Positions 46,613-46,715 of a stretch of DNA of 55,569 nt are shown here, piece by piece. The notes beneath the pieces are model-generated. The model searched no databases and was not told the DNA's origin. It worked only from the letters and a program-made list of their open reading frames with translations. Source of the DNA: a virus (Duplodnaviria > Caudoviricetes); the IMG/VR virus record IMGVR_UViG_3300012964_000005, positions 1 to 55,569 of that record, one strand, 5' to 3'. Position 1 is the stretch's first letter; each line of letters opens with the position of its first letter. Made by a program: the position numbers and the translations under genes.

Positions 46613-46687
46613 GATATTTCGGGGATAACTCGTTTAATCGCGCAACTATATTGCGCCGGTTACAACATTGTTCTTTAGAACAATTCA

Positions 46688-46715
46688 ATGTCGCATAATA
46701 TATATTATGGTTATT
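46688..46715 (+). other. dif: dif-like XerC/XerD recombination site (putative attP)
   Basis: ATGTCGCATAA-TATATA-TTATGGTTATT; 20/28 identical to E. coli dif GGTGCGCATAA-TGTATA-TTATGTTAAAT. Confidence 0.8.

What the first reader, a model, noticed from the sequence alone, without database searches (positions are those of the whole stretch)
46640..46715. Integrase-less temperate tailed phage carrying a dif-like site: probable XerCD hijacker
Seen: an intact cI/cro switch, but no tyrosine or serine recombinase, ParA or protelomerase in an apparently complete genome. At the end of the leftward operon, where int/attP normally sits, is a 28-bp dif-like site (11-6-11; CGCATAA-TATATA-TTATG core). Two palindromes lie next to it (GCGCAA-N5-TTGCGC at 46640; ATTGTTCT-TT-AGAACAAT at 46667). 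Known: IMEXs such as CTXphi, VGJphi and TLC integrate at dif via host XerCD and are mostly filamentous phages or satellites. Inference: a 55-kb podophage IMEX, or a plasmid prophage using Xer for dimer resolution. The palindromes could be accessory-factor sites.
Basis: partly seen in the sequence, partly recalled or inferred. Interest (0 to 1): 0.78.

Follow-up and report, generated by a model that had tools for sequence, protein, structure and literature searches.

The report
Host dif look-alike in integrase-less phage
A 55-kb temperate tailed phage of Alphaproteobacteria has no recombinase gene of its own but carries, where an integrase and attachment site normally sit, a near-perfect copy of the bacterial chromosome-untangling site dif, so it probably borrows the host XerC/XerD enzymes, although no integrated copy was found.

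Summary
Window 46688-46715 is an 11-6-11 site whose 18-bp core is identical to the chromosomal dif core of at least 45 of 401 sampled alphaproteobacterial genomes. It scores like a real dif (47.3 bits; next best in the window 16; best of 200 shuffles 18.2). Both neighbouring palindromes are present, and the only two exact copies of a 10-bp direct repeat flank the site.

Six-frame HMM searches found no tyrosine or serine recombinase, rve or IS110 transposase, protelomerase, ParA, ParB or XafT domain. An XRE repressor flanked by four operators supports a temperate lifestyle. The site lies between the lysis genes and the end of the leftward early operon. Three of four inspected structural relatives carry an integrase in this slot.

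What the site does was not shown. I found no integrated relative, junction contig or large dif-flanked segment. A distant podophage-like Acinetobacter plasmid carries a dif-like site together with ParA, so plasmid carriage with Xer dimer resolution is a live rival.

My odds: Xer-dependent integration about 0.45; episome dimer resolution about 0.3.

This scan has noted similar dif look-alikes in integrase-less tailed phages on other DNA (34 notes, not checked here).

The parts
46688..46715 (+). dif look-alike. XerC-type arm 46688-46698, 6-bp central region TATATA 46699-46704, XerD-type arm 46705-46715. The outer part of the XerD-type arm departs from the alphaproteobacterial consensus.
   Evidence: The 18-bp core is identical to chromosomal sites in at least 45 of 401 genomes. 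The outer XerD arm scores 4.6 bits against a chromosomal median of 6.4.
46667..46684 (.). Perfect 8-bp inverted repeat with a 2-nt spacer, on the XerC side of the core. Role unknown.
46640..46656 (.). 6-bp inverted repeat with a 5-nt spacer, on the XerC side. It overlaps the left copy of the 10-bp direct repeat.
46638..46647 (+). Left copy of the direct repeat TCGCGCAACT, 41 bp from the XerC arm.
   Evidence: the window holds only two exact copies, and they flank the core.
46741..46750 (+). Right copy of the direct repeat TCGCGCAACT, 25 bp beyond the XerD arm, inside the 3' end of the gene 46723-47031.
46723..47031 (-). Last gene of the leftward early operon (102 aa, basic C-terminus). Its stop codon lies 7 nt from the XerD-type arm. 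No family assigned. Candidate accessory factor by position only.
   Evidence: Only 2 homologues (74% and 66% identity) among 5.8 billion proteins. The Atlas search was uninformative.
47021..47473 (-). 150-aa gene with a weak, sub-threshold transglutaminase-like match.
   Evidence: PF01841, E 1.1e-4, 22.9 bits against a cut-off of 23.
46379..46546 (-). 55-aa ORF downstream of the site, preceded by GAAC-N7-GAAC at 46598-46612.
Evidence: 3 matches in the window, 1.52 expected.
45248..45874 (-). HNH endonuclease gene in the lower-GC stretch between the late operon and the site.
   Evidence: PF01844, E 1.6e-13. GC is 0.565 over 45001-47000.
43964..44949 (+). Endolysin (43964-44656) and Rz-like spanin (44656-44949), which end the rightward late operon.
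49360..51733 (-). Leftward early genes: RNA ligase (49360-50079), NinB/Orf (50046-50483) and exonuclease (50957-51733).
54524..55197 (.). Immunity region. XRE-type repressor 54589-54909 (-), flanked by ATCAC-N5-GTGAT operators at 54524, 54555, 54939 and 54969. Small weak-HTH gene 54979-55197 (+).
   Evidence: 5 matches against 1.46 expected; 4 of them lie here.
10055..16487 (+). Large terminase (10055-11326) and T7-type portal (14814-16487), which mark a tailed phage.
55331..55569 (+). Tandem 63/51-nt coding repeat that continues at window 1-229. This is the record's 'terminal repeat' and the junction of the circular map.

Best explanation
The 28-bp site is a substrate for the host's XerC/XerD recombinases and serves as the phage's attachment site. 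After infection the circular phage DNA recombines with the host chromosome's dif, or with the dif of a secondary replicon. This gives a prophage in the usual lambdoid order, with the early-left genes at one end and the lysis genes at the other.

The XerC arm and the central region match host-type dif exactly. The outer XerD arm departs from it. After integration, one flanking copy would therefore be an altered dif, which could slow FtsK-driven excision, as reported for the gonococcal genetic island and Legionella LME-1.

Shown: the sequence match, its statistical strength, the lack of any recognisable recombinase or partition gene, the temperate switch, and the position in the int/attP slot.

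Inferred: Xer binding, integration, the role of the XerD-arm changes, and any role for the flanking repeats or for the adjacent 102-aa gene.
For: 1. The core is identical to chromosomal dif cores. CGCATAA-N6-TTATG occurs in 253 of 401 alphaproteobacterial genomes. The phage's exact 18-mer is in at least 45 of them (31 rows, 8 new, 6 new).
2. The weight-matrix score equals that of real dif sites and is far above shuffles and five other phage sequences, whose best scores are 6 bits or less.
3. No recombinase, partition or XafT domain was found in six frames. Pfam/PHROG scans of the early-region ORFs showed none either.
4. The phage has a temperate switch.
5. The site occupies the slot between the lysis genes and the leftward operon. 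G402 (49% identity in the 847-aa virion protein) has an integrase just past its late genes. E. coli pSF10EC-3 and Bordetella pA have int, or int plus xis, right after the lysis genes.
6. Similarity to bacterial dif loci is confined to 20-23 nt, so this is not a captured piece of chromosome.
7. The only two exact copies of a 10-mer flank the core.
8. The same 18-mer is in 82 IMG/VR contigs against 2 for its backwards-read control. This shows viruses keep this core, mostly small ones of kinds known to use Xer.
9. There are precedents for large Xer-exploiting elements with an altered outer arm: GGI, 57 kb (PMC5357621, passages) and phage-like LME-1 (PMC9765430, passages).
Against: 1. No integrated form was found. 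The one scan of species genomes gave only 2 distant loci.
2. None of the portal matches in 80 of the 115 portal-positive alphaproteobacterial genomes lies within 60 kb of a dif core. The nearest same-contig cases are 75-92 kb away.
3. No direct pair of cores 30-70 kb apart occurs in the 39 genomes with two or more cores.
4. The order around the genome with the best-matching XerC arm and central region holds only portals of 31% identity or less.
5. Two exact-flank scans of metagenome contigs found nothing.
6. In 4 wetland runs the contigs cross the site unbroken (X1 46374-47417; X3 46374-47150). None of the 24 loose ends shown lies at the site, but 421 further loose ends were not shown.
7. The site is nearly a full dif, so FtsK-activated excision might be efficient, which fits dimer resolution at least as well.
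8. There is no DUF3653 activation factor.
9. The host, and therefore its real dif, is unknown, so the 'divergent XerD arm' is judged only against a 24-site sample.
10. Most other large viral contigs with this core show no repressor-type HTH (4 of 15 with PF01381). dif look-alikes in tailed phages therefore need not be tied to lysogeny.
Confidence: 0.45

Rival explanations
1. Plasmid prophage. In lysogens the phage persists as a free circle, and the dif look-alike lets host XerCD (with FtsK) turn dimers back into monomers, as on secondary replicons and on Xer-dependent plasmids.
For: The site is as good as a chromosomal dif at nearly every position.

Acinetobacter plasmid pTS37365 (37,365 bp) has a distant podophage module (portal about 24% identity). 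It carries an annotated ParA and an 11-6-11 dif-like site at 18500, and no annotated integrase.

In Azospirillum, dif sites are predicted on all but the smallest replicons (bioRxiv 10.64898/2026.09.14.751567, passages). Contigs cross the site unbroken in two runs.
Against: No ParA (PF13614, PF01656) or ParB was found in six frames. No plasmid-type replication or partition family appeared among the early-region ORFs scanned.

No phage-size plasmid in PLSDB is a close relative; the best portal identity is 28.8%.

The same preprint passage cites work that 30-100-kb enterobacterial plasmids tend to lack dif-like sites.
Confidence: 0.3
2. The site is bound by Xer proteins, or is simply a palindrome, and serves neither integration nor plasmid maintenance. 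It could be an operator or promoter element of the SOS-box mini-operon. It could be a decoy, a relic of an ancestor that targeted dif, or a site used during lytic replication.
For: It is a perfect 16-bp palindrome in a 176-nt gap that also holds two other palindromes and a GAAC-N7-GAAC box upstream of the next gene.

Of 15 other large viral contigs with the same core, 14 lack an integrase, none has a ParA match over the cut-off, and only 4 have an HTH_3 match. In tailed phages such sites may therefore have another use.
Against: A plain operator would not be expected to match dif at the 16 positions outside the palindromic inner arms as well as real dif sites do. The repressor's operators are a different motif found only at 54524-54983. 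The core is 41 times commoner in viral contigs than its control.
Confidence: 0.15
3. An unrecognised phage-encoded recombinase acts on the site. Candidates are one of the family-less proteins next to it, or the 293-aa protein at 8667-9548 that has an IS110-type helix-hairpin-helix segment.
For: 8667-9548 gives weak matches to PF02371 (E 6.4e-4 for the protein; 1.6e-5 in six frames) and to a PHROG labelled transposase (E 1.6e-7). Several genes near the site have no family. In marine Vibrio, tailless prophages at dif often carry their own integrases (PMC11630473, passages).
Against: The model of 8667-9548 (pLDDT 86) is all-helical with no RuvC-like sheet, and PF01548 is absent. Its best fold matches are TasH/TasR proteins (E 3e-4), with IS621 only at E 0.02. 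The gene lies 37 kb from the site, next to the terminase. The gene at 46723-47031 has only 102 aa.
Confidence: 0.1

Closest known systems
Gonococcal genetic island (GGI) of Neisseria, a 57-kb IMEX
   Same: A large double-stranded element with no integrase. Its dif-like site has a XerC arm and central region like the host dif and a divergent XerD arm (PMC5357621, passages).
   Different: GGI is a secretion island, not a virus, and is known in the integrated state. Here the integrated state was not seen and the host dif is unknown.
Legionella mobile element LME-1
   Same: A phage-like element whose att copies most of the host dif. The outer substitutions left after integration lower excision (PMC9765430, passages).
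   Different: LME-1 uses a single recombinase, XerL, and a different site sequence, and its integration has been shown experimentally.
TLC-phi, VGJ-phi and CTX-phi of Vibrio cholerae (classical IMEXs)
   Same: Phages without an integrase that integrate at dif through XerCD (PMC5357621 and PMC6744903, passages).
   Different: These are small filamentous or satellite phages. TLC-phi needs XafT (DUF3653), which is absent here. Their sites depart from dif in the central region or lack a XerD arm, whereas this site is almost a full dif.
dif-integrating Microviridae (gokushovirus prophages)
   Same: The best matches to the site among 50,697 GenBank phage records are microviruses. Their Xer use is known to me only from search listings (PMC7062461, PMC3091885) and from recall.
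   Different: They are 4-6-kb single-stranded DNA viruses without tails.
Xer-dependent plasmid resolution sites (cer, psi, Acinetobacter pdif) and dif on secondary replicons
   Same: An 11-6-11 core acted on by host XerCD, carried on a mobile circle. The podophage-like plasmid pTS37365 carries one.
   Different: Those replicons have their own replication and partition genes. cer and psi need about 200 bp of accessory sequence (PMC6744903, passages). No Par genes were found here.
Lambdoid int-xis-attP module
   Same: The position is the same: between the lysis/tail genes and the end of the pL-type operon.
   Different: There is no integrase or excisionase. The core copies a host recombinase's own site.

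Membership tests
IMEX (integrative mobile element exploiting Xer) | Carries a dif-like site with XerC and XerD arms around a 6-8-bp central region | tested here: met
IMEX (integrative mobile element exploiting Xer) | Encodes no integrase of its own | tested here: met
   Six-frame HMM searches were negative. A recombinase of an unknown family cannot be excluded.
IMEX (integrative mobile element exploiting Xer) | Found integrated at the host dif, flanked by dif and a dif-like copy | tested here: inconclusive
   No integrated relative or junction was found.
IMEX (integrative mobile element exploiting Xer) | Integration depends on host XerC/XerD | not testable with these tools
   Needs genetics or biochemistry.
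TLC-phi-type IMEX | Encodes a XafT-like DUF3653 Xer activation factor | tested here: not met
   PF12375 gave no match at E up to 1.
GGI / LME-1-type IMEX | XerC arm and central region equal to the host dif, outer XerD arm altered | tested here: inconclusive
   The core and XerC arm match alphaproteobacterial sites. The outer XerD arm scores 4.6 bits against a median of 6.4. The true host dif is unknown.
Xer-dependent plasmid or phage-plasmid | Autonomous replicon with partition genes (ParA/ParB or equivalent) | tested here: not met
   PF13614, PF01656 and PF02195 were negative. No such family appeared in the early-region scans.
Xer-dependent plasmid or phage-plasmid | Accessory sequences beside the XerC arm (cer/psi type) | tested here: inconclusive
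   Two palindromes and one repeat copy lie within 50 bp on the XerC side. No binding protein is known.
Lambdoid temperate phage with int/attP | Tyrosine or serine integrase next to attP | tested here: not met
Transposable (Mu-like) phage | DDE transposase | tested here: inconclusive
   rve was negative. For PF02914 the control rang nowhere. The genome layout is lambdoid with a terminase.

The most novel reading that the evidence does not exclude
A temperate tailed podophage of Alphaproteobacteria lysogenises without any recombinase of its own, by XerCD-mediated insertion at the host's dif through a nearly complete dif copy with an altered outer XerD arm. It would be one member of a wide, so far undescribed set of tailed phages that keep host dif copies: 82 IMG/VR contigs hold the same 18-bp core against 2 for the control, and 15 of them are 25 kb or longer.
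Probability: 0.4. Interest if true: 0.8.

Novelty: new variant of a known kind. Interest (0 to 1): 0.6.

Why it matters
Use of the host Xer machinery for lysogeny is described for filamentous phages, satellites, microviruses, some tailless phages and genomic islands. My literature searches listed no paper describing it for a tailed phage. A 2024 survey of marine Vibrio states that tailed prophages use their own integrases, while filamentous ones sit at dif (PMC11630473, passages).

If tailed phages also use Xer, then counting integrases underestimates how many are temperate. The dif site would become a host-range marker that can be read from the phage sequence. The chromosome terminus would also become an entry point for 50-kb elements.

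The case is directly testable with a small attP plasmid in an alphaproteobacterium and its xerC/xerD mutants.

Tried and rejected
1. Near-identical DNA in GenBank phages: none.
2. The exact 25-mer in IMG/VR: none.
3. Relatives of the two genes next to the site in IMG/VR: none.
4. Azospirillum phage Cd shares the exonuclease at 63% identity. It has an annotated integrase and no dif-like site; its best score is -0.5 bits. It is therefore no model for this phage.
5. Idea that the site is captured chromosomal DNA: rejected, because similarity to 30 dif loci stops at the site.
6. Idea that an integrase hides at the repeat junction: rejected on the X1 contig that closes the junction.
7. Terminator or promoter scan of 45000-47600: nothing at the site.
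8. A first operator pattern with the wrong spacing found nothing and was corrected.
9. Read laying showed no support for a junction at the site, and most loose ends were not shown. A joint 44585 to 47404 has only 21 letters on its shorter side, so I do not rely on it.
10. Papers that gave nothing for this question: PMC7901474, PMC3861242, PMC10272872, bioRxiv 10.1101/633727 (an inovirus at dif).
11. Supplementary files were not opened. Tables of dif sites in PMC2731167 and PMC3025954 were not read; I saw only the search listings.
12. The finding that 14 of 15 large viral contigs lack an integrase has no background rate, so it is not used as evidence of lifestyle.
13. One genome in the samples (G241) is flagged unpublished.

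Full report
WHAT THE RECORD IS. The window is a whole IMG/VR virus record of 55,569 bp, classed as having direct terminal repeats. The repeat is part of a 63-nt tandem repeat inside a coding region. A contig of run X1 passes from window 55543 straight into the letters that stand at window 197. The map therefore closes through the repeat, and no gene is hidden there.

My own gene calls give a rightward block that runs from about 54979 through the junction to 44949. It contains a large terminase (PF04466, E 9e-29), a T7-type portal (PF12236, E 2.4e-101), an 847-aa virion protein (phrog_684, E 1e-175), a tail fibre with a T7-like N-terminus, an endolysin and a spanin. A leftward block runs from 54477 down to 46723 and contains an exonuclease, NinB, an RNA ligase and an HNH gene.

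The best isolate matches of the virion protein are podophages of Stenotrophomonas, Pseudomonas, Vibrio and Pelagibacter at 27-35% identity. The exonuclease matches phages of Azospirillum (63%) and of rhizobia. This points to an alphaproteobacterial host.

A 106-aa XRE repressor (54589-54909, PF13560, E 8.5e-12) is flanked by two pairs of ATCAC-N5-GTGAT operators and faces a small weak-HTH gene. This is a lambdoid-style switch.

THE SITE. Window 46688-46715 reads ATGTCGCATAA TATATA TTATGGTTATT. It lies in a 176-nt gap between the stop codon of the last leftward early gene (46723-47031) and a 55-aa ORF (46379-46546). In addition, the only two exact copies in the window of the 10-mer TCGCGCAACT flank the core in direct orientation, at 46638 and 46741.

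IS IT A dif LOOK-ALIKE BEYOND CHANCE? I searched 401 genomes sampled from the class of an Acetobacteraceae genome that one search had returned. The pattern CGCATAA-N6-TTATG matched in 253 of them, usually once per genome. The backwards-read control matched in far fewer rows. The phage's exact 18-mer, with TATATA in the middle, stands in at least 45 of the 401 genomes.

Flanks of 30 fetched loci show sites such as GATTCGCATAA TATATA TTATGGTAAAT. A matrix built from 24 of them scores the phage site at 47.3 bits, inside the range of real sites. The next best place in the window scores 16, the best of 200 shuffles 18.2, and five other phage sequences 6 or less. On the 16 positions not fixed by my selection pattern, the phage site scores 22.0 bits against a chromosomal median of 19.4. 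None of 100,000 random 28-mers reaches that score.

The only weaker part is the outer XerD arm (4.6 against 6.4 bits). At two positions T stands where most chromosomal sites have A. Similarity to the bacterial loci ends at the site.

NO RECOMBINASE OR PARTITION GENE. Six-frame HMM searches of the record found no phage integrase, resolvase, rve, IS110 DEDD domain, protelomerase, ParA (two models), ParB or DUF3653. Positive controls rang in well-known genomes for these families. The Mu transposase model had no working control.

One weak lead was followed. The 293-aa protein at 8667-9548 matches the helix-hairpin-helix part of PF02371 and a PHROG labelled transposase. It has at least 448 homologues. 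A model built on 43 sequences (pLDDT 86) is all-helical. Its best fold matches are TasH and TasR proteins of TIGR-Tas systems (E 3e-4, TM about 0.5), with IS621 only at E 0.02. It has no RuvC-like domain, so I do not count it as a recombinase.

POSITION. The structural relative G402 (17 of my 88 predicted proteins match it, all in the virion block) has a tyrosine integrase just past its late genes. Two phage-size plasmid records with distant versions of the same virion module have an integrase, in Bordetella with an excisionase, directly after the lysis genes: E. coli pSF10EC-3 and Bordetella pA. Ralstonia pm01 also has an integrase.

In the window that slot instead holds an HNH gene, small ORFs, the dif look-alike and a 102-aa gene of no family that has only two homologues.

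SEARCH FOR THE INTEGRATED STATE. This failed.
- T7-type portals occur in 115 of the 401 genomes. In the 80 I could re-scan, none lies within 60 kb of a dif core; the nearest are 75-92 kb away.
- Among 39 genomes with two or more cores, no direct pair is 30-70 kb apart.
- The order of the genome whose site best matches the phage's XerC arm and centre holds only portals of 31% identity or less (5 of 244 genomes).
- Exact-flank scans of metagenome contigs found nothing.
- In four wetland runs that hold the stretch, contigs cross the site unbroken and no listed loose end lies at it. Most loose ends were not listed.

THE RIVAL. Acinetobacter plasmid pTS37365 (37 kb) has a distant podophage module and an annotated ParA. 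My scan also found a clean 11-6-11 dif-like site in it. A tailed phage kept as a plasmid can therefore carry a Xer site, presumably for dimer resolution. The window phage lacks any Par gene, which is the main point against this reading here. Its site is nearly a full dif, which fits dimer resolution well.

WIDER PATTERN. The 18-mer occurs in 82 IMG/VR contigs against 2 for its backwards-read control. Most are 4-14 kb, and 15 are 25 kb or longer. Of those 15, 14 lack PF00589, none has a ParA match over the cut-off, and 4 have an HTH_3 match. Two of them (G414, G416) have portal and capsid homologues of this phage.

The scan's notebook holds 34 notes of dif look-alikes in integrase-less tailed phages on other DNA, including two reported as prophages sitting at dif. 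I did not check these notes and do not count them as support.

LITERATURE. I read passages on GGI and the Vibrio IMEXs (PMC5357621), on XafT (PMC6744903), on LME-1 (PMC9765430) and on marine Vibrio prophages (PMC11630473). They describe Xer exploitation by filamentous phages, satellites, tailless phages and islands. Four searches listed no paper on a tailed phage doing so. This holds only for that library and those terms.

VERDICT. The site is almost certainly a substrate-grade copy of an alphaproteobacterial dif in a temperate, recombinase-less podophage. I rate Xer-dependent integration at 0.45, episomal carriage with Xer dimer resolution at 0.30, another or no role at 0.15, and an unrecognised phage recombinase at 0.10.

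Noticed in passing
window 8667-9548 (+): A 293-aa protein upstream of the terminase, with at least 448 homologues and no Pfam family. Its AlphaFold model (pLDDT 86, all-helical) best matches TasH/TasR proteins of TIGR-Tas RNA-guided systems (Foldseek E 3e-4, TM about 0.5), then IS621 (E 0.02). I did not look for a guide-RNA array nearby.
   Followed up: partly
IMG/VR loci L048-L127; records G406-G420: The 18-bp dif core occurs in 82 viral contigs against 2 for its backwards-read control. Fifteen of the contigs are 25 kb or longer. Of those 15, 14 lack an integrase match, none has ParA over the cut-off, and 4 have an HTH_3 match. G414 and G416 are podophage-like. In G407 and G414 the site lies next to genes that look, by eye only, like small terminase subunits.
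   Followed up: partly
L146 (CP042209.1, Acinetobacter baumannii plasmid pTS37365), position 18500: A 37-kb podophage-like plasmid with an annotated ParA carries an 11-6-11 dif-like site in an intergenic gap. It is a tailed phage-plasmid with a Xer site.
   Followed up: partly
401 alphaproteobacterial genomes: The T7-type portal family PF12236 matches in 115 of the 401 sampled genomes, often at E below 1e-120. This is unexpectedly common for a podophage portal.
   Followed up: no
window 1-229 and 55331-55569: A gene with tandem 63-nt and 51-nt repeats encoding repeated HADPEFAKANSER-type peptides spans the contig junction. The copy number is probably unresolved by the assembly.
   Followed up: partly
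window 45887-47417, 48384-48747, 50026-53586: In runs X2 and X3 these early-region segments stand at about 45-95-fold depth, while the virion genes are near 1-fold. A second element in that sample therefore shares the module that holds the site.
   Followed up: no
window 45248-45874 and 49002-49454 (-): There are two HNH endonuclease genes in the leftward part. The first lies in a lower-GC stretch (0.565) next to the site. A terminator-like hairpin on the + strand at 45253-45278 overlaps the 3' end of that first gene.
   Followed up: no
L002 (Acetobacteraceae MAG contig, 57,658 bp): This is the nearest relative among species genomes (41% identity in the 847-aa virion protein). The contig is of phage size. 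The fetched 22 kb holds masked runs of N and no dif-type core.
   Followed up: no
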